Both the position numbers and the translations under genes were made by a program. This document shows, piece after piece, positions 5,098-62,807 of a DNA stretch of 64,000 nucleotides (position 1 is its first letter; each line of letters starts with the position of its first letter). A model generated the notes under the pieces. It was not told where the DNA came from. It searched no databases and worked only from the letters and a program-made list of their open reading frames with translations. The stretch spans positions 9,062 to 73,061 of the forward strand of contig JACQXN010000020.1 of NCBI GenBank assembly GCA_016208745.1, in the 5' to 3' direction. The DNA comes from Candidatus Portnoybacteria bacterium (GTDB taxonomy: Bacteria; Patescibacteriota; Minisyncoccia; Portnoybacterales; GWB1-42-6).

Positions 5098-8275
<3,178 letters not shown>

Positions 8276-9968: not shown

Positions 9969-9978
9969 TTTTCTTTAA

Positions 9979-10168
9979 GCCACTTTTTGTGCCGACAAAA
10001 AGTGGCCAAAAAACTCTCGCCACGCGTAAAAAATAAAGAAAAATCGGGCTCGCTTCGCTAAATTTGCTATGCCCAGCGCTTCGCGCTGACAACCACAACA
10101 CGCAAATTTTTAACGCTCGGCTCGTCTCGATTTTCTAGTTATTTTTTCGCGATGGCGAATAAATTTTA
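9979..10168 (+). repeat. Copy 1 of a ~190-bp structured intergenic repeat, glyQS to M16 peptidase
   Basis: A 5' hairpin CCACTTTTTGTGCCGACAAAAAGTGG, conserved blocks AAAAAACTCTCGCCA, ATCGGGCTCGCTTCGCTAAATTTGCTATGC and ACGCAAATTTTTAACGCTCGGCTCG, and a variable apical hairpin. Confidence 0.65.
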
Positions 10169-17847: not shown

Positions 17848-17932
17848 TTGTGCAACCGGTAACTTGATCAATCGTTGCACAGTCTATTAAATCTCCCCTA
17901 GCCCCTCCTAAAGGAGGGGAATTACTCCTTAT

Positions 17933-21236: not shown

Positions 21237-21365
21237 ATAGTCTTTGGATATAGTAGATCATATTTGAAAAAAAAGCAAAATTGAGGTAGAGTAAAATAAA
21301 AATCCACCCCGACCCTCCTTTTCCAAAGGAGGGGATATTCCTTCTTTCGAAAAAGGGAGGCCAAG

Positions 21366-21488
21366 ATGGATTTGGAATATATGGATAAATATGACCCGAA
21401 AAAAGTAGAGCCCAAATGGCAGAAGTTTTGGGAGGAACATCCCGAGCTTTTTTCAGCCAAAGAAGATTCCAAGGGAAAAAAGGAATAG
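21366..21488 (+). other. leuS: N-terminal 40 codons of leuS, separated from the main ORF by an in-frame TAG at 21486-21488
   Basis: The translation MDLEYMDKYDPKKVEPKWQKFWEEHPELFSAKEDSKGKKE is followed by TAG, then ILDMFPYPSGDG. This is the canonical LeuS N-terminus (YNPKEIExKWQKxW...). Confidence 0.8.
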
Positions 21489-21491
21489 ATT

Positions 21492-23987
21492 TTGGATATG
21501 TTTCCATATCCTTCAGGCGATGGTTTGCATACCGGGCATGTTGAAAGCTATACCGCAACAGATATCATTTCCCGTTATTGGCGTATGAAGGGAAAAAATG
21601 TTTTGCATCCGCAGGGCTTTGACGCTTTTGGTTTGCCGGCAGAAAACTTTGCCATTAAAACAAAGATTCATCCTTCGCAAACCACTCAAAAAGCAATTGC
21701 CACTTTCAAGCAGCAAATGAATATGCTCGGATTTTCCTATGATTGGTCGCGGGAAGTTAATTCGTCTGACCCAAAATATTATAAGTGGACACAATGGTTT
21801 TTTCTTTTACTTTACAAAAATGGTCTGGCATATAGGGGTAAAGCAAAAGTTAATTGGTGCAATTCTTGTCAAACGGTTTTGGCCAACGAACAGGCCGAAG
21901 GCGGAGTTTGCGAGCGATGCGGCAGTCCGGTTGTGCAAAAGGATTTGGAGCAGTGGTTTTTTAAAATTACTGATCTTATTGAATCCAAGGGCGCTACTTC
22001 CGGATTGCTACAGGGTCTTGATAAAATTGACTGGCCAGAATCAACCAAAGCCGGCCAGCGCAACTGGATAGGGAAGTCAGAGGGAGCGCAGTTTAAAATG
22101 GAAATTATAACCAGTACCACCCCGGCCTCCGGCCACCCCTCCTCAGCTGAGGAGGGGACGAAAGGGGAGGTGTTGGATTATATTGAAGTTTTTACAACGC
22201 GATTGGACACGGTTTTTGGGATGACTTTTGCCCTTATCGCTCCGGAACATAAGATTATCAACGAGCTTAAATCGCAAATTGAGAATTGGAGTGAGGTTGA
22301 AAAATATATTGAAGAGGCCAGGAAAAAATCAGAGTTGCAAAGAATTTCTGAAACCAAAGAAAAAACAGGAGTGGAAATAAAAGGCGTAAAAGTTATTAAT
22401 CCTTTTACCGAGCAGGAAATTCCGGTTTTTATTTCCGACTTTGTTTTAGCGCATTATGGAACAGGCGCTGTTATGGCCGTTCCCGGACACGACCAGCGCG
22501 ATTACGAATTTGCTAAAAAATTTAACCTGCCGATTATTGAAGTGATAAAAAGCGAGGACAGAAAATCATCAATTGAAAAGGAGGCATTTATAGAAGATGG
22601 GGTATTGGCTAATTCGCGCGAATACGACAATACAACTTCTGCAAAAGCACGCGAAAAATTAATTGAGTGGATCCAGAAAAATAATCTGGGCGAAAAGAAA
22701 ATTAATTACAAAATGCGCGATTGGTTGGTTTCGCGGCAAAGATATTGGGGCGCGCCAATCCCGATAATTTATTGTCCGCAATGTTGTCATTCCCGCCCCG
22801 CATCGCAGTACGGGGCGAATCTAGAAAACGAAAAATCTGGATCCCGGATCAAGTCCGGGATGACAGAATTTGAAATTACAGAGATTGACGGAAAAAAATA
22901 TGCGATGGTCCCCATTCCAGAAAAAGATTTACCAGTGCTTTTGCCTGATGATGTTGATTTTATGCCGCATGGCGAATCCCCTCTTTCAAAATCAAAAAAA
23001 TTTCACGATGTTTCGTGTCCAAAATGCGGAGAGAAGGCGAAAAGGGAGTCAGACACAATGGACACATTTGTCTGTTCCTCCTGGTATCATTTCCGTTATG
23101 CTGATCCGAAAAACGAAAAAGAATTTGCCAGCAAAGAGAAAATAGAGAAATGGTTGCCAGTTGATTTGTATGTTGGGGGCGCGGAGCATACGGTTTTACA
23201 TCTTTTGTATTCCCGTTTTTTTACCAAGGCCTTGCATAATCTCGGCTACATTGATTTTGACGAGCCGTTTTTAAAAATGCGGCATCAAGGAATAATTTTG
23301 GCTGAAGACGGCCAAAAAATGTCAAAGTCGCTCGGCAATGTTATCAATCCTGATTCGGTGGTGGCACAATATGGCGCCGATGCCTTACGGATGTTTGAAA
23401 TGTTTATGGGGCCGCTGGAAGATGCAAAACCTTGGAATACTAAGGGGATCACCGGGATCTATAGGTTTTTGGAGAAAGCATGGAGGATAAGCTTAAAGTT
23501 TAAAGTTAAAAGTGAAAAGTCAGGGCTAGAAGTTAAAAGTTTAATACATAAAACAATTAAGAAAGTTAGTGAAGACATAGAAAAATTAAAATTTAATACA
23601 GCTATCAGCGCATTAATGGTTTTGCTAAATGAGATTGAAAAAAACGAAGAAATGCCCATCGAGGTTTTTGAAAAGTTTTTAATTCTCCTTTCGCCCTTTG
23701 CGCCGCATATCTCAGAGGAGATTTGGTCACAGTTAGGTCATGAAGAAAGTATTTTTAAAGAAAAATGGCCTGAATATAATCCCGAATTAATTAAAGAAGA
23801 GATAATTGAGTTGATCATTCAGATTAACGGCAAGGTGCGCGATACGATTTCTGTGGCGGTTGATATTTCGGAAACTGACGCTAAAAAACTCGCGCTTGAA
23901 AGCGAGAAGATAAAAAAATATCTTTTGGGCAGAGAGCCAAAGAAAATTATTTTTGTTAAAGAGAAACTAATAAATATTGTATTGTGA
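21492..23987 (+). CDS. leuS: Leucyl-tRNA synthetase main ORF (TTG or ATG restart just after the TAG). It carries at least three in-frame repeat insertions.
   Basis: Contains MFPYPSGDGLHTGH (HIGH), KMSKSLGN, the editing domain and a Zn knuckle CPQC...CPKCG. The insertions are at 22118-22175, 22785-22865 and 23492-23547. Confidence 0.9.
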   Translation: MDMFPYPSGDGLHTGHVESYTATDIISRYWRMKGKNVLHPQGFDAFGLPAENFAIKTKIHPSQTTQKAIATFKQQMNMLGFSYDWSREVNSSDPKYYKWTQWFFLLLYKNGLAYRGKAKVNWCNSCQTVLANEQAEGGVCERCGSPVVQKDLEQWFFKITDLIESKGATSGLLQGLDKIDWPESTKAGQRNWIGKSEGAQFKMEIITSTTPASGHPSSAEEGTKGEVLDYIEVFTTRLDTVFGMTFALIAPEHKIINELKSQIENWSEVEKYIEEARKKSELQRISETKEKTGVEIKGVKVINPFTEQEIPVFISDFVLAHYGTGAVMAVPGHDQRDYEFAKKFNLPIIEVIKSEDRKSSIEKEAFIEDGVLANSREYDNTTSAKAREKLIEWIQKNNLGEKKINYKMRDWLVSRQRYWGAPIPIIYCPQCCHSRPASQYGANLENEKSGSRIKSGMTEFEITEIDGKKYAMVPIPEKDLPVLLPDDVDFMPHGESPLSKSKKFHDVSCPKCGEKAKRESDTMDTFVCSSWYHFRYADPKNEKEFASKEKIEKWLPVDLYVGGAEHTVLHLLYSRFFTKALHNLGYIDFDEPFLKMRHQGIILAEDGQKMSKSLGNVINPDSVVAQYGADALRMFEMFMGPLEDAKPWNTKGITGIYRFLEKAWRISLKFKVKSEKSGLEVKSLIHKTIKKVSEDIEKLKFNTAISALMVLLNEIEKNEEMPIEVFEKFLILLSPFAPHISEEIWSQLGHEESIFKEKWPEYNPELIKEEIIELIIQINGKVRDTISVAVDISETDAKKLALESEKIKKYLLGREPKKIIFVKEKLINIVL
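22785..22865. mobile_element. TGTCATTCCCGC-TIR MITE inserted in-frame (81 bp, 27 codons) inside leuS
   Basis: TGTCATTCCCGCCCCGCATCGCAGTACGGGGCGAATCTAG...ATCTGGATCCCGGATCAAGTCCGGGATGACA encodes the extra segment between CPQCC and EFEITEIDGKKY in the LeuS Zn-knuckle region. Confidence 0.65.
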
Positions 23988-24954: not shown

Positions 24955-25150
24955 GCCGCTTTTTTGGCAGCAAAAAAGCGGCGGAAAAAACTGCGCCCAG
25001 AGCGTAAAAATTTAATAAAATCGGATTCGCCTCGCTAAATTTGCTATCCACAACGCCCCAACCTTACGGTCGGGGCCCCACCACAGCACGCAAATTTTAC
25101 GCTTGGCTCATCGCGATTTTATTAATAAATTTTTCGCTATAGGCGGTGAA
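24955..25150 (+). repeat. Copy 2 of the ~190-bp structured intergenic repeat, tsaC to PAP2
   Basis: Same block order. The 5' hairpin is CCGCTTTTTTGGCAGCAAAAAAGCGG, a different sequence with the same fold. Confidence 0.65.
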
Positions 25151-27804: not shown

Positions 27805-27810
27805 ATTTTG

Positions 27811-27963
27811 CTACGGAATACAGATAAGTACAGATATACGGATAAAAACAAAATCCACCCCGCCCCTCCTTTAAAAAGGAGGGAGATTCCTCCCTTTGAA
27901 AAAGGGAGGGTAGGAGGGATTTGGATTTAATCTGTATATCTGTAATAAATCCATAATCCGTAG
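27811..27963. mobile_element. MITE-like element. It has roughly 35-bp terminal inverted repeats (CTACGGAATACAGATAAGTACAGATATACGGAT) and a CCTCC-family palindromic core.
   Basis: The left end 27811-27845 and the reverse complement of the right end 27925-27963 match. A second copy with the same TIRs and a different core is at 44658-44858. Confidence 0.6.
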
Positions 27964-34783: not shown

Positions 34784-34856
34784 TGTCATTCTGGGCCCCT
34801 ACCCGTCCGGCAGACGGGAACCCGCAATCTAGATTCCCGTTTTCACGGGAATGACA
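34784..34856. mobile_element. MITE of the TGTCATTCCCGC-TIR family (REP-like hairpin pair)
   Basis: It starts TGTCATTC and ends GGGAATGACA, with internal hairpins CCCGTCCGGCAGACGGG and TTCCCGTTTTCACGGGAA. Related copies are at 2330-2412, 22785-22865 and 52780-52849. Confidence 0.55.
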
Positions 34857-35577: not shown

Positions 35578-37695
35578 TTATACGTTCTCATAATTTCTAA
35601 CGAGGTCCACCGCTTCATTCAGCATCTGGATATATAGATTAAGCCCCACGGCGTTGATTTGGCCTGATTGTTCGCGGCCCAAGATATTGCCTGCCCCGCG
35701 GATTTCCAAATCGCGCAGAGCGATTTGATAGCCAGAACCAAGCGCTTGCGCTTCTTTTAGCGCGTCTAATCTTTGTTGCGCAATGTCGGTCAGATTTTTT
35801 TCATTATACAAAAAATAGGCATAGGCCTGTTTATCAGAGCGCCCAATTCTGCCTCGCAATTGATAGCTTTGGGCCAGGCCAAGTTTTGTCGCGTTTGCAA
35901 CAATTAGAGTATTAACATTGGGAAAATCCAAGCCGTTTTCAATAATTGTTGTGGCCACTAGAATATCAATCTTTTTTTCGCCAAAATCATCCATCACTTT
36001 TATCAATTGTTTTTCGTTCATGCGGCCGTGAGCAATAGCAATATAAATTTTCCCCCCCTCCTTTTTAAAGCCTGCCTGTCCGGTAGGCAGGGAGGGGTGG
36101 GGTGGATTTTTTGAATTATCTCCATCCGTAGAATAAATCCCTCCCAGCCTCCCTTTAAAAAGGGAGGAGTTTTTTAGTAATTTCTCAATCTGCTTCTTTG
36201 CCAGTTCAATTGTTTCAATCCGATTATGCAGATAATAAATTTGTCCGCCTCGCTTTAATTCAAATTCAATCGCTTTTTTAATTGTTTTTGGTGAATAGGG
36301 TTCAATAAATGTTTTAACTGCCAATCGGCCGGGCGGCGCGGTTTGAATTAAACTGATATCGCGCAAGCCGGTTAAAGATAAATGCATTGTTCTTGGGATA
36401 GGCGTGGCGCTCAAACTTAAAATATCTATGTTGGCGCGCATTTCTTTAAATCGCTCTTTTTGTTTAACGCCAAATCTTTGTTCCTCATCTATTATAACTA
36501 GTCCAAGACTTGGAAACTCTACGTCTTTTTGAATGAGACGATGGGTGCCAATAACAATATCAGTCTGGCTGTCTTTAATTTGTTTTATGGTTTGAGCCTG
36601 ATTCTTTTTTGATTCCAATCTTGAAAGCAGCGCGATATTAATTGGAAATTTTTTAAGCCGGTTTAAAAAATTATGATAATGCTGGTGGGCTAAAATGGTT
36701 GTTGGCGTGATTAAAGCTACCTGTTTGCCAGCAGTTACTGCTTTAAAAGCCGCGCGCAAAGCGATCTCTGTTTTGCCAAAACCAACATCCCCGCAAATTA
36801 ATCTGTCCATTGGTTTTTCCGATTCCATATCTTTTTTAACGTCTCTCATAGCAGACAATTGATCTTCGGTTTCAATATATAAAAAAGAATCTTCCAGCTC
36901 TTTTTGCAAAGCGTCATCTGGCGGAAATTTAAAACCAGAAACTGCTGCGCGCTTGGCATAAATCTCCAATAATTCTTTAGCCAGATTCAAGGCGCTTTCT
37001 TTGATTTTTCTTTTGGTTTTATACCAGAGCGTTCCGCCAAGGCGATGCACAATCGGCGTTTCAAAGCCAATGTATCTGGTTAATTTTTCTTCCAGTTCAA
37101 GCGGCACATAAAGCCGGTCATTTTTGGCGTATTCTAAAACGAAATATTTTTCTTGACTCTCGGGCGTCGGCGAGTTAAAAGAAAGCTCGCCACCTAGTTC
37201 TTTGGCAAAGCCCTTAAAAATGCCAATGCCATGGTCCAGATGAACCAGATATTCATTCGGTTTTAAATTTGCCAGAAGTTGCGAAGGCGCTTGTTTTTTA
37301 AGGGCTTTCTTGATTGTTTCTGGCTTTTCGTCGATTTTAATTTCAAGAGAAAAAATTTCAGCCAGCTCATTGCCGGAAAATTCAAGGCGCAAGGCCGAAT
37401 CCATATTTATCGGAAAAATATCTAAGATCCCGCCGCGTTGGGAGAGCTCGCCGGGTCTAGCCAATGTTTGCACGCGCTCATAACCAAAATTAGTCAGTTT
37501 TCTTAATAGCTCAAATAGATTTATTCTCTGATTTTTTTCTAAAAAGATCGTATTATCCTTCCACCAGATCTGGGTTTTAGCTACTTCTTCTATTTTTTTT
37601 TGGTTTTCGGAGAACCAAAAGATATCCCGATCTAGGAAATACGGCGACAAGCTTGCAATTAGAATTTTAGTTGGATTTTTACTTTCTGATATCAT
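35578..37695 (-). CDS. mfd: Transcription-repair coupling factor Mfd, compact 705-aa form, carrying an in-frame palindromic-repeat insertion
   Basis: UvrB-homology region (ARPGELSQRGGILDIFP), SF2 helicase motifs (GDVGFGKTEIALRA, DEEQRFGV) and the TRG motif. The insertion ...KGRLGGIYSTDGDNSKNPPHPSLPTGQAGFKKEGG... is encoded by a CCTCC-family element at about 36050-36172. Confidence 0.8.
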   Translation of the reverse strand: MISESKNPTKILIASLSPYFLDRDIFWFSENQKKIEEVAKTQIWWKDNTIFLEKNQRINLFELLRKLTNFGYERVQTLARPGELSQRGGILDIFPINMDSALRLEFSGNELAEIFSLEIKIDEKPETIKKALKKQAPSQLLANLKPNEYLVHLDHGIGIFKGFAKELGGELSFNSPTPESQEKYFVLEYAKNDRLYVPLELEEKLTRYIGFETPIVHRLGGTLWYKTKRKIKESALNLAKELLEIYAKRAAVSGFKFPPDDALQKELEDSFLYIETEDQLSAMRDVKKDMESEKPMDRLICGDVGFGKTEIALRAAFKAVTAGKQVALITPTTILAHQHYHNFLNRLKKFPINIALLSRLESKKNQAQTIKQIKDSQTDIVIGTHRLIQKDVEFPSLGLVIIDEEQRFGVKQKERFKEMRANIDILSLSATPIPRTMHLSLTGLRDISLIQTAPPGRLAVKTFIEPYSPKTIKKAIEFELKRGGQIYYLHNRIETIELAKKQIEKLLKNSSLFKGRLGGIYSTDGDNSKNPPHPSLPTGQAGFKKEGGKIYIAIAHGRMNEKQLIKVMDDFGEKKIDILVATTIIENGLDFPNVNTLIVANATKLGLAQSYQLRGRIGRSDKQAYAYFLYNEKNLTDIAQQRLDALKEAQALGSGYQIALRDLEIRGAGNILGREQSGQINAVGLNLYIQMLNEAVDLVRNYENV

Positions 37696-44657: not shown

Positions 44658-44858
44658 CTACAGAATACAGATTTTATACAGATATACGGATAAATGCCGA
44701 CTGGCGGTTAAGATTACGAGGCTCGTTTTGCCAAGCGGTTAGGTTTTACGTCTTTTTGACGAATGACGCTTGACGCTAAACGATACGAGCTTTGTAACCG
44801 ATAGACGTTAAACGAATGACCAAGTATCTGTATATCTGTACTTATCTGTAATCCGTAG
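44658..44858. mobile_element. Second MITE-like element with the CTACRGAATACAGAT...TIRs and a different internal sequence
   Basis: The left end CTACAGAATACAGATTTTATACAGATATACGGATAAA matches the reverse complement of the right end (GGCTACGGATTACAGATAAGTACAGATATACAGATAC). It shares TIRs with 27811-27963. Confidence 0.55.
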
Positions 44859-44865
44859 CCAGATC

Positions 44866-46159: not shown

Positions 46160-46200
46160 CACTTTTATTTTTCGGCATATCCCTTAGTGAATTTTTTAAA

Positions 46201-46390
46201 CCTACTTTTTGTACCGACAAAAAGTAGGCAAAAAACTCTCGCCAAGCATAAAATTTTGATAAAATCAGACTCGGCTCGCTAAAATTGCTATGCACCCCGC
46301 ATTCTGCGGGGCCCAAAGGCACAGCACGCAATTTTTTAACGCTCGTCTTGCCTCGATTTTATTGCAAAATTTTTGCTATGGCGAAGAGGG
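46201..46390 (+). repeat. Copy 3 of the ~190-bp structured intergenic repeat, yqeY to ybeY
   Basis: Same block order. Hairpin CCTACTTTTTGTACCGACAAAAAGTAGG. The long-stem pairing AAAATTGC/GCAATTTT differs from AAATTTGC/GCAAATTT in copies 1 and 2 in a compensatory way. Confidence 0.65.
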
Positions 46391-48437: not shown

Positions 48438-49568
48438 ATGGCGCAAATTAAACCAAACATAGAAACATTTGCTAAAATAAAAGTAGTGGGAGTTGGCGGC
48501 GGCGGCGGCAATGCGGTTTCGCGAATGGCCGATTGCAAAATTCAAGGCGTGGAATTAATTGCTATTAATGCCGACGCGCAGGATTTGCATAGCTGTCTTG
48601 CTCCTCAAAAAGTTCTTATCGGAAAAAATTTAACCAGAGGTCTTGGCGCGGGAATGAATCCAGACATCGGCCGCCAGGCAGCTGAAGAAAACCGCGATGA
48701 AATCCACGAAGTTGTTAAAGGCGCGGATTTGGTTTTTGTTACCTATGGTTTGGGCGGCGGTGTTGGCACAGGAGCCGGGCCGGTGGTGGCCGAAGCAGCC
48801 AGAGATGCAAGCGCTTTAACTGTTGGCGTTGTTACCAGGCCTTTTTCTTTTGAAGGAAATCAGAGGTCTCGTTTAGCTGAAGAGGGCTTAAAGTCGCTGG
48901 CTGATAAGGTTGATGCTTTAATCACTATCCCCAATGACAAACTTCTTTCTATAATTGACCGCAACACTTCTTTATTGGATGCGTTCAAGGTGGTTGATGA
49001 TGTTTTGCGACAAGGCGTTCAGGGGATTTCCGATATAATCGTTACGCCCGGAATTGTTAATGTTGACTTTGCTGATTTGAAGGCGATATTGCAGGGAGCC
49101 GGCTCCGCGCTTATGGGCATTGGATTTGGTTCGGGCGACGATAGAGCAGCCGAAGCCGCGCGTCAGGCAGTAAATTCTCCTTTGCTTGAGGCTTCAATTG
49201 AGGGGGCAAGGGGAGTCGTGTTTAATGTTAGCGGCGGTTCTGATTTAACAATGGCTGAAATCAACGAAGCAGCTAAAATTATTACAGATGCTATTGACCC
49301 GCAGGCCAAAGTCATTTTTGGCGCGGTGACAGATGATAAATTAAAGAAAGGCGAAATAAAGATAACGGTTATTGCGGCTGGTTTTGGCGAACGCCAGGCC
49401 AAAAAAGAGGAAGCGACAACGCGTCTGCCGCTTGATGAAAGAATGATGTCTGCGGCAGCAAAAACTAAAAAACAGCCCGCTTTCACCACATCTCAGGTGA
49501 ATCCTACAGAAGGTCAGGAAGAAGACGAATGGGATATACCGGCTTTTATTAGGAAGAAGATGAAATAA
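48438..49568 (+). CDS. ftsZ: Cell division GTPase FtsZ
   Basis: Tubulin signature GVGGGGGNAV, a T7 loop and a C-terminal tail. Confidence 0.95.
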   Translation: MAQIKPNIETFAKIKVVGVGGGGGNAVSRMADCKIQGVELIAINADAQDLHSCLAPQKVLIGKNLTRGLGAGMNPDIGRQAAEENRDEIHEVVKGADLVFVTYGLGGGVGTGAGPVVAEAARDASALTVGVVTRPFSFEGNQRSRLAEEGLKSLADKVDALITIPNDKLLSIIDRNTSLLDAFKVVDDVLRQGVQGISDIIVTPGIVNVDFADLKAILQGAGSALMGIGFGSGDDRAAEAARQAVNSPLLEASIEGARGVVFNVSGGSDLTMAEINEAAKIITDAIDPQAKVIFGAVTDDKLKKGEIKITVIAAGFGERQAKKEEATTRLPLDERMMSAAAKTKKQPAFTTSQVNPTEGQEEDEWDIPAFIRKKMK

Positions 49569-52749: not shown

Positions 52750-52779
52750 TTTTTGAATTGAATCATAGGCTCTGTTATT

Positions 52780-52849
52780 TGTCATTCCCGCGAAAGCGGG
52801 AATCCAGGCTCTTTTTTGAATCTAGATTCCCGCTTTCGCGGGAATGACA
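52780..52849. mobile_element. MITE of the TGTCATTCCCGC-TIR family (inverted pair of REP-like hairpins)
   Basis: TGTCATTCCCGCGAAAGCGGGAATCCAG...ATCTAGATTCCCGCTTTCGCGGGAATGACA. The two halves are reverse complements of each other. Confidence 0.6.
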
Positions 52850-52923
52850 AGACTGAGTATTATGTAATTCAAGCAGGAAGTTTTTTAAAAACAAAATAAA
52901 ACAAAAACATAAGGAGGCAAAAG

Positions 52924-54162: not shown

Positions 54163-54257
54163 ATAATTATTTCCCCCTTTATAAAAGGGGGATTCAGGGG
54201 GATTTTTAAAATCCCTCCCAGCCTCCTTTTTTCAAGGGAGGAGTAAGAAAACAAATA

Positions 54258-55621: not shown

Positions 55622-55684
55622 CAAAAAGGGGAATAAATCCACCCCACCCCTCCTTTTTCAAAGGAGGGAGTAAAAAAACAAATA

Positions 55685-56240: not shown

Positions 56241-56548
56241 AGAAGAAAGTTAATCCAAATTTTAACATCCGATTGTTAATCTGGCGCATAGGGGGCGAAG
56301 TTCTATAAATAATTTTTTTATAAATCCCTCCCAACCTCCCCTAAAGGGGAGGAGTAAAAAATTCCCCTCCTTTAGGAGGGGTTAGGGGAGATTTAGTAAA
56401 AGGTCGACATTGCCTGCTTTCCGCTTTTAGCGGTTTTCTGCCAAAAGCAGGGCAGTGAACTAGCACATTTTAAAAATAAAGGCAGAAAACAGATATTAAC
56501 GAATTGCGGATTAACGAATTTTAACGCGTTAGTTCGTTAATTCATAAA

Positions 56549-57412
56549 ATGATACAAAAATCTATGAAAAAAGTTTTCGTTACCTTAACAGTTTTATCGT
56601 TAATGGTATTGACGGCGGCTCCTGCTTTGGCTGGTCATCGTCCTTCAAGACACCAAATGCCAGCTAATGACAGCGATATCACAATTAATATTGATAATGA
56701 GGCGACTGTTACCAACATCGTTTCTGTCGGAGCTTACACCGGCGGCAATACCTCTAAAGGCGATGACGGCGGCGACGGCGGCGACAGCGGCGAAGCAGAA
56801 GTTGAAGGAGCTAAAGGCACTGCCACTTCCGGCGACGGCGGCGACGGCGGCGACGGCGGCAATGGCGGCACAATCACCTCTGGTGATGCAGATGCGAGCG
56901 CCTATATTGCTAACGTAGTTAATACCAATTTGACTTCAGTTGATGCTTGCGGTTGCGAAGAAGGAGAAGAGGAAGATGGCTGTGGATGTGAAGATCCTTG
57001 CGGCTGTCAGTCTCGCTGCGGCGGCTCTCAACAAGGGGATGACTGTGGTTGCATTGATGACATCAAAGTTGACATAGAAAACAAAAAGACTGATGTTAAC
57101 AACAATGCAGGAGTTATGGCCGACACAGGTTTAAATGAATCCAAAGGCGATGACGGCGGCAATGGCGGCGACAGCGGCGAAGCAGAAGTTGAAGACCAAG
57201 ACAAAGACAGAGACAACAGATGGCATCGCGGCGGCTGCAATACTTGCGGCAGTGATTCAGAAGACAGCGAATGCTGCCCTGAAGCCACTTCAGGTGATGC
57301 AGGCGATGGCGGCGACGGCGGCAATGGTGGTGAAATCACCAGCGGCGCAGCTGCGGCTACAGCCAAAGTATTTAATCTGGTTAACACCACTGTTACCAGA
57401 GTTCGCAGATAA
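56549..57412 (+). CDS. Secreted Gly/Asp/Cys-rich repeat protein
   Basis: Signal peptide, two internal repeats (SKGDDGGxGGDSGEAEVE...TSGDAxxxAxxxNxVNTxxT), and a CGC-rich metal-binding-like segment. The antisense ORFs are spurious. Confidence 0.6.
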   Translation: MIQKSMKKVFVTLTVLSLMVLTAAPALAGHRPSRHQMPANDSDITINIDNEATVTNIVSVGAYTGGNTSKGDDGGDGGDSGEAEVEGAKGTATSGDGGDGGDGGNGGTITSGDADASAYIANVVNTNLTSVDACGCEEGEEEDGCGCEDPCGCQSRCGGSQQGDDCGCIDDIKVDIENKKTDVNNNAGVMADTGLNESKGDDGGNGGDSGEAEVEDQDKDRDNRWHRGGCNTCGSDSEDSECCPEATSGDAGDGGDGGNGGEITSGAAAATAKVFNLVNTTVTRVRR

Positions 57413-57737
57413 CTATTTTTTGCGAAACGAGCAGGAGAAGCTTTCGGGCTTCTCCTCTCGGATAAGCTCTTAATTTATTTCCCCCTTTTTAAAGGGGGAT
57501 AAAGGGGGATTTAAAAAGACAAATCTAAATCCACCCCTCCCCTCCTTTAAAAAGGAGGGGAGGAATATCGATTGATAGCTTATGCGAGGGAAAAATGCCA
57601 GAATTTCTAATTACTCCGCCCAAGGCGGATCCGCCTCTGGCGGATAATTCAATCCCAATGCCCAATGTCAAGATTTAAAAATTAGACATTTGGGAACTAA
57701 ATATTTTATTGGAAATTAGGAATTATTTAAGAAATTT

Positions 57738-58346: not shown

Positions 58347-58544
58347 ATTCACTGAATCATAAAGCGGGCATTTTTTGCCTCCCCTCCTCAGATGAGGAGG
58401 GGAATTAAAGGGGTGGTGGTGACCTTAATAATTCAACACCCCACCCTACCCCTCCCCTCATCTGAGGGGAGGGAAGACGCCTATTTTATAATTCAATGTT
58501 AAGCCAATATTTTAATCTAACTCCGGAGGGAAGTTATATCGGTT

Positions 58545-61349: not shown

Positions 61350-61691
61350 TTTTTTGAGGCTGAGTTTGTCTAATAATAACTTGATTAGCCACAAATCCTC
61401 CCTCGCCTCGCTTAAGCTCCGGCGAAGCGGGCCAGCCCTCCCCCGTATCAAGTACGGGGCAAGCTCTAAAGGGAGGGAGCAGGGATTATTCCCCTCCTTT
61501 AGGAGGGGTTAGGGGAGATTTAGATTGGTGTAAGAGTTAATTAATTTCAGGAACCATCGCAGATTACATTATTATTCATTAAACCCTAGGCTATTATTTG
61601 TTTGACAGGATTCCTTGAGGCGGTAAAATGATAAATAAACATCGCTTTTTTTGCAGCGGGCGAGTTTTAATAATTATTAAAACTATAAAAA

Positions 61692-62566: not shown

Positions 62567-62807
62567 TCTTTTTTCCTCCTCTCAGACTTGCCCCGTTCAG
62601 CGGGGTGAAGGAGAGGTAGGGTGGGGTGTTGAAAAGACAAATTTTACAATAATTCCCTCTCCTCAGTTGAGGAGAGGGGAAGGGTGAGGTGATGTTTTCA
62701 AATCAACACCACCCCCAACCCCTCCTCATCTGAGGAGGGGAGGAATCATTTTAGGGTTTTCCACAGATTTCTCCACATTTGGTTCACTTTTCATAAACAG
62801 CGCGATT

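What the first reader, a model, noticed from the sequence alone, without database searches (positions are those of the whole stretch)
36050..36172. Same CCTCC-family element inserted in-frame in mfd, reverse orientation
On the - strand the element encodes ...SLFKGRLGGIYSTDGDNSKNPPHPSLPTGQAGFKKEGGKIY... inside Mfd. The KGRLGGI peptide is the same as in the tgt insert because the same repeat arm (TTGAAAAAGGGAGGCTAGGAGGGATTT) is translated. The DNA carries the hairpins CCTGCCTGTCCGGTAGGCAGG, GGAGGGGTGGGGTGGATTTT and AAATCCCTCCCAGCCTCCCTTTAAAAAGGGAGGAG. These are GC-rich palindromes in an AT-rich essential gene.
Basis: partly seen in the sequence, partly recalled or inferred. Interest (0 to 1): 0.7.

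Follow-up and report, generated by a model that had tools for sequence, protein, structure and literature searches.

The report
Palindromic repeat inserted in-frame in mfd
A 120-base copy of a small hairpin-forming repeat that is scattered through this ultra-small bacterium's genome sits inside the DNA-repair gene mfd without breaking the reading frame. It probably adds a floppy 40-residue surface loop, much like the palindromic elements of Rickettsia, and related bacteria carry similar repeats at the same loop.

Summary
Window 36052-36171 (40 codons, minus strand) is an insertion in a Candidatus Portnoybacteria Mfd. It has no counterpart in E. coli or Mycobacterium Mfd, and most orthologues have only a 4-residue xPxA loop there.

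The insert is two inverted ~35-nt "CCTCC" hairpin units. A separate 21-nt hairpin is nested in the loop of one unit. A covariance model finds 17 such units in the 64 kb. Most are intergenic, and one pair lies in-frame in tgt, giving the same KGRLGGI peptide. A related hairpin type lies in-frame in leuS.

AlphaFold models the insert as a low-confidence coil between a confident helix and strand of the second RecA-like domain.

Syntenic orthologues at 85-88% identity differ at this loop: empty, or filled by one of three repeat families, with different junctions. So the loop was hit repeatedly. The unit's exact 22-mer also occurs in other CPR lineages (in RecG, MurC-like and UvrC-like genes) and in MAGs assigned to Proteobacteria, Desulfobacterota, Deferribacterota and Elusimicrobia.

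No transposase was found.

Best reading: a selfish, non-autonomous REPIN/MITE-like palindrome, tolerated in-frame as Rickettsia palindromic elements are. It is a new member of a known kind.

The parts
35578..37695 (-). Host gene: short CPR-type Mfd (transcription-repair coupling factor), 705 aa, intact reading frame
   Evidence: 100% identical to an NCBI Candidatus Portnoybacteria protein, P0001.
36052..36171 (-). The insertion: 40 codons (aa 509-548, NSSLFKGRLGGIYSTDGDNSKNPPHPSLPTGQAGFKKEGG). It is stop-free in 2 of 6 frames and has GC 0.52.
   Evidence: AlphaFold gives coil with pLDDT <50 for 516-547, between helix 493-508 and strand 552-555.
36054..36109 (-). Unit 1 of the CCTCC family (5'-AAATCCACCCCACCCCTCC...GGAGGGGGG on the minus strand). 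Hairpin stem 36055-36061 / 36091-36097. Its loop is enlarged by the nested hairpin.
   Evidence: Covariance-model hit of 35.1 bits, E 5e-11, model positions 1-36. Stem.
36071..36091 (.). Nested 21-nt hairpin CCTGCCT-GTCCGGT-AGGCAGG (7 codons, LPTGQAG) inside the loop of unit 1. It is absent from the orthologous inserts in L001 and L002.
   Evidence: A similar small palindrome, GCCTGCCTGCCGGCAGGCAGGC, lies at L002 4092-4113 and 9901-9922; both fall between the genes called on that contig.
36110..36134 (.). Spacer between the two units (reads IYSTDGDNS). It differs in length and sequence among orthologous inserts.
36135..36169 (+). Unit 2 of the CCTCC family: AAATCCCTCCCAGCCTCCCTTTAAAAAGGGAGGAG. 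Hairpin 36148-36155 / 36160-36167. Its complement encodes SSLFKGRLGGI.
   Evidence: Covariance-model hit of 44.7 bits, E about 1e-15..
7632..7712 (+). Sister copy (two units, tails outward) in-frame in tgt. It encodes [29 protein letters not shown] (aa 193-221), which has no counterpart in the best-matching solved TGT (chain residues 175->180).
21300..21373 (.). Two-unit copy immediately 5' of leuS
27851..27922 (.). Two-unit copy in the parA-parB spacer, nested inside another palindromic repeat
   Evidence: The orthologous spacer in L003 is 16 bp.
54170..54243 (.). Two-unit intergenic copy, tails inward as in mfd
55635..55670 (+). Single intergenic unit; best match to the model
   Evidence: 61.2 bits.
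56322..56394 (.). Two-unit intergenic copy
57478..57561 (.). Two-unit intergenic copy, tails inward
17889..17921 (+). Single intergenic unit
61489..61521 (-). Single intergenic unit. A neighbouring CCCTCCC/GGGAGGG hairpin (61436-61477) has a large loop containing a further inverted repeat.
22126..22162 (+). Related B-type unit (CCACCCCTCCTCAGCTGAGGAGGGG) in-frame in leuS. It adds about 15 aa (TSTTPASGHPSSAEEGT).

Best explanation
The segment is a copy of a non-autonomous, selfish palindromic repeat. It resembles a REP doublet (REPIN) or a MITE. It landed in the 4-residue loop (xPxA) between a helix and a beta-strand of the second RecA-like domain of Mfd.

**Anatomy.** The basic unit is about 35 nt: an AAATCC tail, two C-rich blocks, an A/T-rich loop, and a G-rich arm that pairs with the second C block. 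Units occur as inverted pairs. A pair can fold either as two stem-loops or as one long hairpin.

**Why it persists here.** The copy is a multiple of three in length, is stop-free in the frame used, and sits in a surface loop. The mfd reading frame therefore stays intact. The insert is most likely read through by the ribosome and displayed as a disordered 40-residue loop with little effect on the enzyme. Selection removes copies that break genes, so only such tolerated copies are seen inside genes.

**Later history.** A separate 21-nt hairpin later inserted into the loop of one unit, again keeping the frame.

**What is shown.** The repeat-family membership, the in-frame loop position, its absence from most orthologues, the repeated filling of the same loop in relatives, and compensatory changes that preserve the unit's hairpin.

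**What is inferred.** Translation of the insert, near-neutrality for the protein, and mobility itself. The enzyme that moves the element is unknown. By analogy with REPIN/RAYT and IS200/IS605, a trans-acting enzyme that recognises single-stranded hairpins is the leading guess, but only a guess.
For: **1. It is an insertion.**
- No counterpart in solved Mfd structures.
- About 48 of the first 70 homologues, including 73-76% identical syntenic orthologues, have a 19-residue K-L-x-P-x-A-...HG stretch here, against 59 residues in the window.

**2. It is a repeat-family member.**
- Covariance-model hits with E about 1e-15 and 5e-11.
- 17 full-length units in 64 kb, mostly intergenic and mostly in inverted pairs.
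- The motif is enriched 5 against 0.01 expected.

**3. In-frame copies also lie in other housekeeping genes.**
- In the window: tgt and leuS.
- In other CPR genomes: RecG, a MurC-like ligase and a UvrC-like protein.

**4. The position is structurally permissive.** AlphaFold gives confident flanks (pLDDT about 90) and coil with pLDDT <50 for 516-547.

**5. The loop was filled repeatedly.**
- Orthologue pairs at 85-88% identity differ: empty, A-type, B-type or C-type.
- Junctions differ between alleles.
- 22 of the first 70 homologues are filled.
- Other loops (after residues 421, 573 and 631) are hit too, and the site-421 inserts examined at DNA level contain inverted repeats by eye.

**6. The hairpin is conserved by compensatory change.** 99.3% of cells pair, 6 of 9 pairs show double-sided changes, and 0 of 500 shuffles reach the observed values.

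**7. Folding.** Pairs fold as long hairpins or as two stem-loops, as described for REPINs (PMC3116915).

**8. Precedent.** In-frame palindromic elements are established for Rickettsia RPEs (review PMC10969869).

**9. The element is absent where the site is empty.** The syntenic loci of genomes with an empty Mfd site (L003, L057, L058) hold no unit.
Against: - No transposase or RAYT was found among about 50 ORFs of the window. None recurs among 124 ORFs next to 28 copies in other genomes.
- No target-site duplication could be recognised.
- There is no population data showing presence/absence polymorphism, so mobility is inferred from distribution only.
- Translation of the insert is not shown; there is no proteomic or transcript evidence.
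- Compensatory conservation of the hairpin, and near-identity of the unit across phyla, are more than a decaying selfish repeat would need. They could point to a function.
- All A- and B-type filled alleles share a K-I/V junction in place of K/R-A. That could mean shared ancestry or recombinational spread of a filled allele rather than independent hits.
Confidence: 0.8

Rival explanations
1. The hairpins are kept in mfd because they act in cis as an RNA or DNA structure. Possible roles are slowing translation, stabilising the mRNA, terminating antisense transcripts, or binding a protein. On this view the coding of a loop is a by-product.
For: - The same two-hairpin arrangement is kept in three orthologues with variable spacers.
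- The sense RNA folds well, z = -3.3.
- Stems covary.
- A terminator-like hairpin plus T-run lies on the antisense strand at 36148-36167.
- The G arm is Shine-Dalgarno-like and the C arm resembles an anti-Shine-Dalgarno sequence.
Against: - The same units sit in unrelated contexts: intergenic, tgt, leuS, RecG and a MurC-like gene.
- The same Mfd loop is filled by unrelated repeat families in close relatives and is empty in most.
- No Rfam family matches.
- Units do not systematically precede start codons: only 4 of 56 do.
Confidence: 0.08
2. The 40 residues are a lineage-specific functional protein loop, for example a partner-binding segment, that happens to be encoded by palindromic DNA.
For: - The insert is retained in-frame in three orthologues with a conserved KGRLGGI...NPPxPSFKKEG peptide.
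- Inserts recur at this loop.
Against: - The peptide conservation follows from DNA hairpin conservation.
- The same DNA is read in another frame in tgt, where the AAATCC-tail arm of a unit gives [12 protein letters not shown] rather than KNPPHPS.
- It is predicted to be disordered.
- Its distribution on the tree is patchy.
- Most copies are non-coding.
Confidence: 0.06
3. The element is removed before or during translation, by an intron-like excision or by ribosomal bypass, so that Mfd is made without the loop.
For: The insert is a compact, stable hairpin structure. CPR bacteria are known for insertions in rRNA genes (my own knowledge).
Against: - All four in-gene copies in the window (two of them from the related B- and C-type families) are multiples of three and stop-free. 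That would not be required if they were removed.
- No gene in the window is split by a copy.
- There is no ribozyme or intron match in Rfam.
- It is far too small for a group I or group II intron or an intein.
Confidence: 0.03
4. The insertion is an assembly artefact: a repeat-induced chimera in the metagenome-assembled genome.
For: Short repeats can mislead assemblers. This exact Mfd protein is on record from only one contig.
Against: - The frame is preserved exactly.
- Equivalent inserts at the same site occur in independent assemblies, L001 and L002.
- The tgt protein with its insert recurs identically in three Logan contigs.
- Flanking sequence on both sides is collinear mfd.
Confidence: 0.02

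Closest known systems
Rickettsia palindromic elements (RPEs)
   Same: Both are short palindromic repeats present in many copies. A sizeable share of copies is inserted in-frame into unrelated housekeeping genes, adding a peptide segment compatible with the protein fold (review PMC10969869). Here that applies to mfd, tgt and leuS in 64 kb, plus RecG, a MurC-like gene and a UvrC-like gene in relatives.
   Different: - The host phylum is different: Patescibacteria/CPR rather than Rickettsiales.
- The elements are smaller: 35-nt units and 75-120-nt pairs, against about 100-150 nt.
- They are C/G-block rich.
- They have a modular unit/pair organisation with nesting.
- The same protein loop is filled repeatedly by several families in related species.
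- The unit is also found outside the phylum.
- Sequence similarity to RPE consensus sequences was not tested.
REP sequences, REPINs and BIMEs mobilised by RAYT transposases
   Same: - The unit is a 20-40-nt imperfect palindrome with a conserved single-stranded 5' tail.
- Units are organised as inverted doublets with a spacer.
- The doublets fold either as one long hairpin or as two stem-loops (PMC3116915).
- There is no coding capacity.
- No target duplication is evident.
   Different: - The REP-type GTAG tail is absent; the tail here is AAATC(C/T).
- No RAYT or other Y1 transposase gene was found in the window or next to 28 copies elsewhere.
- Copies are not restricted to extragenic space.
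- Doublets occur in both tail-outward and tail-inward arrangements.
[quoted passage not shown] ERIC, BOX, Correia/NEMIS
   Same: Small, non-coding and multi-copy, with terminal inverted repeats (AAATCC...GGATTT in the tail-outward form). Occasional intragenic in-frame copies are known for some MITEs.
   Different: No target-site duplication and no parent insertion sequence were identified. The element is built from hairpin units rather than from the two ends of an IS.
Small dispersed repeats of cyanobacteria (Elhai and colleagues, 2008; recalled from memory, paper not read here)
   Same: Very small palindromic sequences that are found nested inside one another and inside other repeats, and that can lie within genes without breaking frames. 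Examples here: the 21-nt hairpin nested in the mfd copy, the CCTCC pair nested in another repeat at 27805-27963, and copies nested in other palindromes in a Methylococcaceae MAG.
   Different: The sequences and the host phylum are different. The comparison rests on my recollection of that work, not on a test.

Membership tests
Rickettsia palindromic elements (RPE) | Multi-copy palindromic repeat with copies inserted in-frame in protein-coding genes | tested here: met
   17 units in 64 kb. In-frame copies in mfd, tgt and leuS.
Rickettsia palindromic elements (RPE) | Sequence similarity to one of the described RPE families, in a Rickettsia host | not tested
   No RPE consensus was available to the tools. 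The host is Candidatus Portnoybacteria, so membership by descent is not expected.
Rickettsia palindromic elements (RPE) | The inserted peptide lies at the protein surface and is compatible with the fold | tested here: met
   AlphaFold gives a low-confidence coil (pLDDT <50 for 516-547) between a confident helix and strand. The insertion replaces a 2-3-residue loop of solved Mfd structures.
REP / REPIN | Imperfect palindrome of 20-40 nt, arranged as inverted doublets that form a hairpin | tested here: met
   Unit of 33-37 nt with a 9-bp stem. 7 inverted pairs in the window. Long-hairpin folds.
REP / REPIN | Conserved GTAG-type tetranucleotide at the 5' end of the palindrome | tested here: not met
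   The tail is AAATC(C/T) in all 42 aligned units.
REP / REPIN | A cognate RAYT (Y1 transposase) gene flanked by the repeats | tested here: inconclusive
   None among about 50 window ORFs or 124 ORFs within 3 kb of 28 copies elsewhere. Whole genomes could not be scanned.
REP / REPIN | Extragenic location | tested here: not met
   Two of the nine A-type loci in the window lie in genes (mfd and tgt), and leuS holds a B-type and a C-type copy.
MITE | Terminal inverted repeats, small size, no coding capacity | tested here: met
   AAATCC...GGATTT ends in the tail-outward pairs, 74-85 nt long.
MITE | Target-site duplication and a related autonomous insertion sequence | tested here: inconclusive
   No duplication is visible when the filled L001 site is compared with the empty L058 site, but those genes are 15% diverged. 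No transposase was found.
Introns / inteins | Ribozyme core, or intein splicing motifs and size | tested here: not met
   No Rfam match at gathering score, and only chance-level hits at E>=1. 40 residues is too small for an intein, and Pfam found no intein domain.

The most novel reading that the evidence does not exclude
The CCTCC unit may belong to a broad-host-range family of mobile hairpins. An exact 22-mer, with the same downstream stem and the same partner unit, occurs in several CPR lineages and in MAGs assigned to Methylococcaceae, Smithella/Syntrophaceae, Deferribacterales, Seleniivibrio and Elusimicrobia. The family would be moved by a still unidentified trans-acting enzyme and might be exchanged between CPR episymbionts and their neighbours. 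In CPR bacteria this family, together with at least four other hairpin families, would be a major recurrent source of loop insertions in housekeeping proteins. Particular loops, such as Mfd after residues 421 and 508 and TGT after residue 111, would have been hit independently many times.
Probability: 0.35. Interest if true: 0.75.

Novelty: new member of a known kind. Interest (0 to 1): 0.5.

Why it matters
In-frame palindromic repeats are best documented in Rickettsia. Finding the same process in the Candidate Phyla Radiation would help explain why CPR proteins carry so many lineage-specific loop insertions. It would also warn annotators and structure predictors that such segments are repeat-derived.

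The repeated filling of one 4-residue loop by several repeat families gives a natural experiment on which protein sites tolerate insertions. It may also reveal whether these elements have target preferences.

The near-identical unit in distant phyla, with no transposase nearby, raises a tractable question about how such hairpins move and spread.

Tried and rejected
1. **"Portable Shine-Dalgarno" idea.** The G arm (AAAGGAGGG) is Shine-Dalgarno-like, but only 4 of 56 units have an ORF of at least 60 aa starting 2-15 nt downstream. Rejected.
2. **Known RNA family.** Rfam at gathering score finds only a tRNA in the window. A permissive scan of the insert gives chance-level hits only, E >= 1.
3. 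**Transposase nearby.** Pfam scans of about 50 window ORFs, and of 124 ORFs next to copies in 28 other loci, found no transposase, and no family recurred in more than 3 ORFs.
4. **Vectors.** The 22-mer has 0 matches in viral contigs. A blastn of a full pair against PLSDB plasmids gave one insignificant partial hit.
5. **Other host proteins found through the peptide.**
   - phmmer of the 40-residue insert against 1.8 billion representatives gave only two unrelated hits, a repeat protein and a repetitive ORF with no relation to this element.
   - A synthetic peptide query found nothing through the word index.
6. **Literature.** Searches for the DNA strings, and for MITE/REPIN/palindromic terms together with CPR/Patescibacteria, found nothing relevant.
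7. **Close Mfd relatives from metagenome contigs.** The scan returned only 45-50% identical genes, which were not used.
8. **MAFFT alignment of units.** It misaligned the 3' arms because loop lengths differ. It was replaced by a model-based alignment.
9. **Single ancient insertion with vertical descent.** Considered and judged unlikely, because the closest relatives differ in state and in junctions. Recombinational spread of filled alleles is not excluded.
Full report
**What is there**

The window comes from a Candidatus Portnoybacteria (Patescibacteria/CPR) genome. The 705-residue product of ORF 35578..37695 (minus strand) is 100% identical to an NCBI protein of that name.

It is a short Mfd. 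Pfam finds the UvrB-interaction, RID, DEAD and Helicase_C domains. Solved Mfd structures match with E 1e-157 to 1e-153.

In those alignments query residues 509-550 have no partner. E. coli Mfd goes from residue 834 to 837 and M. smegmatis Mfd from 896 to 900.

The insert proper is 40 codons, window 36052-36171. Its GC is 0.52 against 0.40 for the rest of the gene, and it is stop-free in two of six frames.

**Anatomy**

The insert is built from two inverted copies of a unit of about 35 nt. Each unit has an AAATC(C/T) tail, a first C-rich block, 1-3 bases, a second C-rich block, an A/T-rich loop, and a G-rich arm that pairs with the second block.

- Unit 2 is 36135-36169 on the plus strand.
- Unit 1 is 36054-36109 on the minus strand.
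- The loop of unit 1 carries an extra 21-nt hairpin (36071-36091, seven codons, LPTGQAG).
- A 25-nt spacer separates the two tails.

A covariance model built from 16 units scores the two mfd units at 44.7 bits (E about 1e-15) and 35.1 bits (E 5e-11). It finds 17 full-length units in the 64 kb, as seven inverted pairs and three singles.

Pairs occur tails-outward (tgt, 5' of leuS, parA-parB spacer, 56322-56394) or tails-inward (mfd, 54170-54243, 57478-57561). They fold either as two stem-loops or as one long hairpin. These are the two folds described for REPINs (PMC3116915).

On a model-based alignment of 97 matches from 29 of the 36 sources searched, 99.3% of cells pair and six of nine pairs show C-G to U-A double changes. 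No shuffle out of 500 reaches the observed values. That alignment is fitted to the model, so it leans towards the structure. Even so, the CCCTCC/GGAGGG versus CCTCCC/GGGAGG swap is plain in the raw sequences.

**It is an insertion, and not an assembly artefact**

Seven syntenic orthologous loci were fetched. All share some of the conserved neighbours pth, dprA, topA, relA and parB-parA.

- Three loci have a 4-residue loop here: VPKA, APRA and APKA.
- Two independent assemblies (L001, L002) have the same two-unit insert without the nested hairpin.
- Two (L059, L060) have a related B-type insert, in which the hairpin loop is CAGNTG.

The window's tgt protein, with its insert, is present 100% identical in three Logan contigs. 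Reads for this assembly itself could not be examined.

**Structure**

An AlphaFold model built on 72 homologues has mean pLDDT 79.9. It places the insert between helix 493-508 and strand 552-555, both at about 90 pLDDT. Residues 516-547 are coil with pLDDT below 50.

The insert therefore extends a surface loop of the second RecA-like domain, upstream of the conserved HGRM motif. All helicase motifs are intact.

**The same loop has been filled many times**

Among the first 70 Mfd homologues, 22 carry an insert at this loop. At least three repeat families are represented:

- A: KGRLGGI...NPPxPSFKKEG.
- B: SPPQ[LM]RGG...
- C: ...GEESPAYAG...GMTK.

Nearest relatives differ in state:

- P0003 (A) and P0018 (empty) are 85% identical.
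- P0012 (empty), P0004 (C) and P0006 (B) are 85-86% identical.
- P0007 (C) and P0008 (empty) are 88% identical.

Junctions also differ. Some alleles keep the proline after the insert, some keep it before, and some lose it. This argues for repeated independent insertion into a permissive loop.

A- and B-type alleles share a K-I/V junction in place of K/R-A. Shared ancestry of some alleles, or spread by recombination, is therefore not excluded.

Other Mfd loops (after residues 421, 573 and 631) carry inserts too. The site-421 inserts that I examined at DNA level also contain inverted repeats by eye.

TGT homologues show the same picture. 30 of 120 have an insert after residue 111, and at least four of these are B-type.

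**Other genes and other organisms**

In the window:

- tgt carries a two-unit copy (aa 193-221, absent from the best-matching solved TGT).
- leuS carries a B-type unit of about 15 aa, and an 81-nt copy of a third family, TGTCATTCC...GGGATGACA.

An exact 22-mer of the unit occurs in 28 loci of the species-representative genome collection. All 28 continue with the complementary stem, which was not part of the search pattern.

- The hosts include other CPR lineages: Portnoybacteria, Parcubacteria, Saccharibacteria and Peribacteria.
- They also include MAGs assigned to Methylococcaceae (seven contigs), Smithella/Syntrophaceae, Deferribacterales, Seleniivibrio, Elusimicrobia and a gammaproteobacterium.
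- Several of these contigs are 70-518 kb long, and some neighbouring genes are LpxB and MlaC.
- In three CPR loci the copy lies in-frame: in RecG, in a MurC-like ligase, and in a truncated ORF with a UvrC-like GIY-YIG domain.

**How it most likely works**

The best-supported reading (confidence about 0.8) is a selfish, non-autonomous palindromic repeat. Selection filters its in-gene copies down to those that keep the frame, lack stops and sit in surface loops. The ribosome reads through, and Mfd gains a disordered loop.

Read-through is inferred. All four in-gene copies in the window (two A-type pairs, one B-type unit, one C-type element) are 3n and stop-free, which would not be needed if they were removed.

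The mode of movement is unknown. The unit/doublet anatomy, the conserved single-stranded tail, the lack of a visible target duplication, and the habit of landing inside the loops of other palindromes resemble REPIN/RAYT and IS200/IS605 biology. Examples of that nesting are the mfd copy, 27805-27963, 61436-61477 and the Methylococcaceae copies.

However, no such enzyme was found in the window or next to 28 other copies, and the tail is not the REP-type GTAG. I would put no more than about 0.3 on a Y1/HUH-type enzyme.

**Comparison and novelty**

In behaviour this is closest to the Rickettsia palindromic elements. In anatomy it is closest to REPINs. It fails two REP criteria, the GTAG tail and extragenic location. 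Its membership in RPE families was not testable.

I found no description of such elements in CPR bacteria in the held literature. I therefore rate it a new member of a known kind.

Two features deserve follow-up: recurrent hits on the same protein loops by several families, and a nearly identical unit in distant phyla.

**Verdict**

- Observation: confirmed.
- Interest: 0.5.

Noticed in passing
window 21486-21488 (leuS, 21381..23987 +): An in-frame TAG interrupts leuS 35 codons after the likely start (...SKGKKE*ILDMFPYPSG). From memory, LeuS usually has Tyr at this position, so TAT/TAC to TAG would be a single change. It could be a consensus error, a pseudogene or read-through.
   Followed up: partly
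window 22785-22865 (in leuS); also 52779-52850, 34829-34856 and around 2395: A third palindromic family has TGTCATTCC...GG(A/G)ATGACA ends. The leuS copy is in-frame (CHSRPASQYGANLENEKSGSRIKSGMT) inside a 40-residue segment that T. thermophilus LeuS lacks. The same family, read as VIPAKAGIQ or ...GMTK, fills Mfd loops in relatives.
   Followed up: partly
window 27805-27963 and 44658-44864: A fourth repeat family (CTACGGAATACAGATAAGTACAGATATACGGATA and its complement). In the parA-parB spacer it flanks the CCTCC pair, so the elements are nested. The orthologous spacer in L003 is only 16 bp.
   Followed up: partly
window 58371-58477 and 62655-62745: Intergenic B-type hairpins (CCCCTCCTCAKMTGAGGAGGGG with a preceding C block). 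These are the DNA behind the SPPQ[LM]RGG peptides seen in Mfd and TGT inserts of relatives.
   Followed up: partly
window 61436-61477: A CCCTCCC/GGGAGGG hairpin whose 28-nt loop holds another inverted repeat (CCCCGTA...TACGGGG). This parallels the nested hairpin in the mfd copy. The CCCCGT...ACGGGG stems resemble the inserts at Mfd site 421 in L002 and L059.
   Followed up: no
window 35578-37695 (Mfd as a whole): The CPR Mfd is minimal, at about 650-700 aa. It aligns to E. coli Mfd residues 126-196 and 471-987 only. It therefore lacks most of the N-terminal UvrB-homology module beyond the UvrA-interacting domain, and it lacks the C-terminal domain that follows residue ~990 in E. coli.
   Followed up: no
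L018:5706-8000 (-), RecG of Portnoybacteria CG08: This RecG carries several extra segments besides the A-type copy (for example NNSPHPPLNLRGGESASS and GGSPPDGRAGASGGK). One helicase gene appears to have been colonised several times.
   Followed up: no
window 56740-57340 and 48489-48771: GGCGAC/GGCGGC-rich tandem-like repeats inside ORF 56549..57412, which has no Pfam match, give Gly/Asp-rich repeats. They are unrelated to the palindromic elements.
   Followed up: no
window 9970-10159, 25006-25056 and 46192-46385: Long (50-75 nt) intergenic direct repeats at 73-81% identity (AAAAAGTGGCCAAAAAACTCTCGCC..., ...TCGGGCTCGCTTCGCTAAATTTGCTATGC...) lie upstream of several genes. They may be shared promoter or leader regions.
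   Followed up: no
L009, L017, L022, L023 and L024 (non-CPR MAGs): In Smithella, Seleniivibrio, Deferribacterales and gammaproteobacterial MAGs the unit is paired tails-inward with a ...CCCCCTTT..AAAGGGGGATTnAGGGGGATTT partner across spacers of roughly 10-30 nt. This is the same architecture as the mfd copy.
   Followed up: partly
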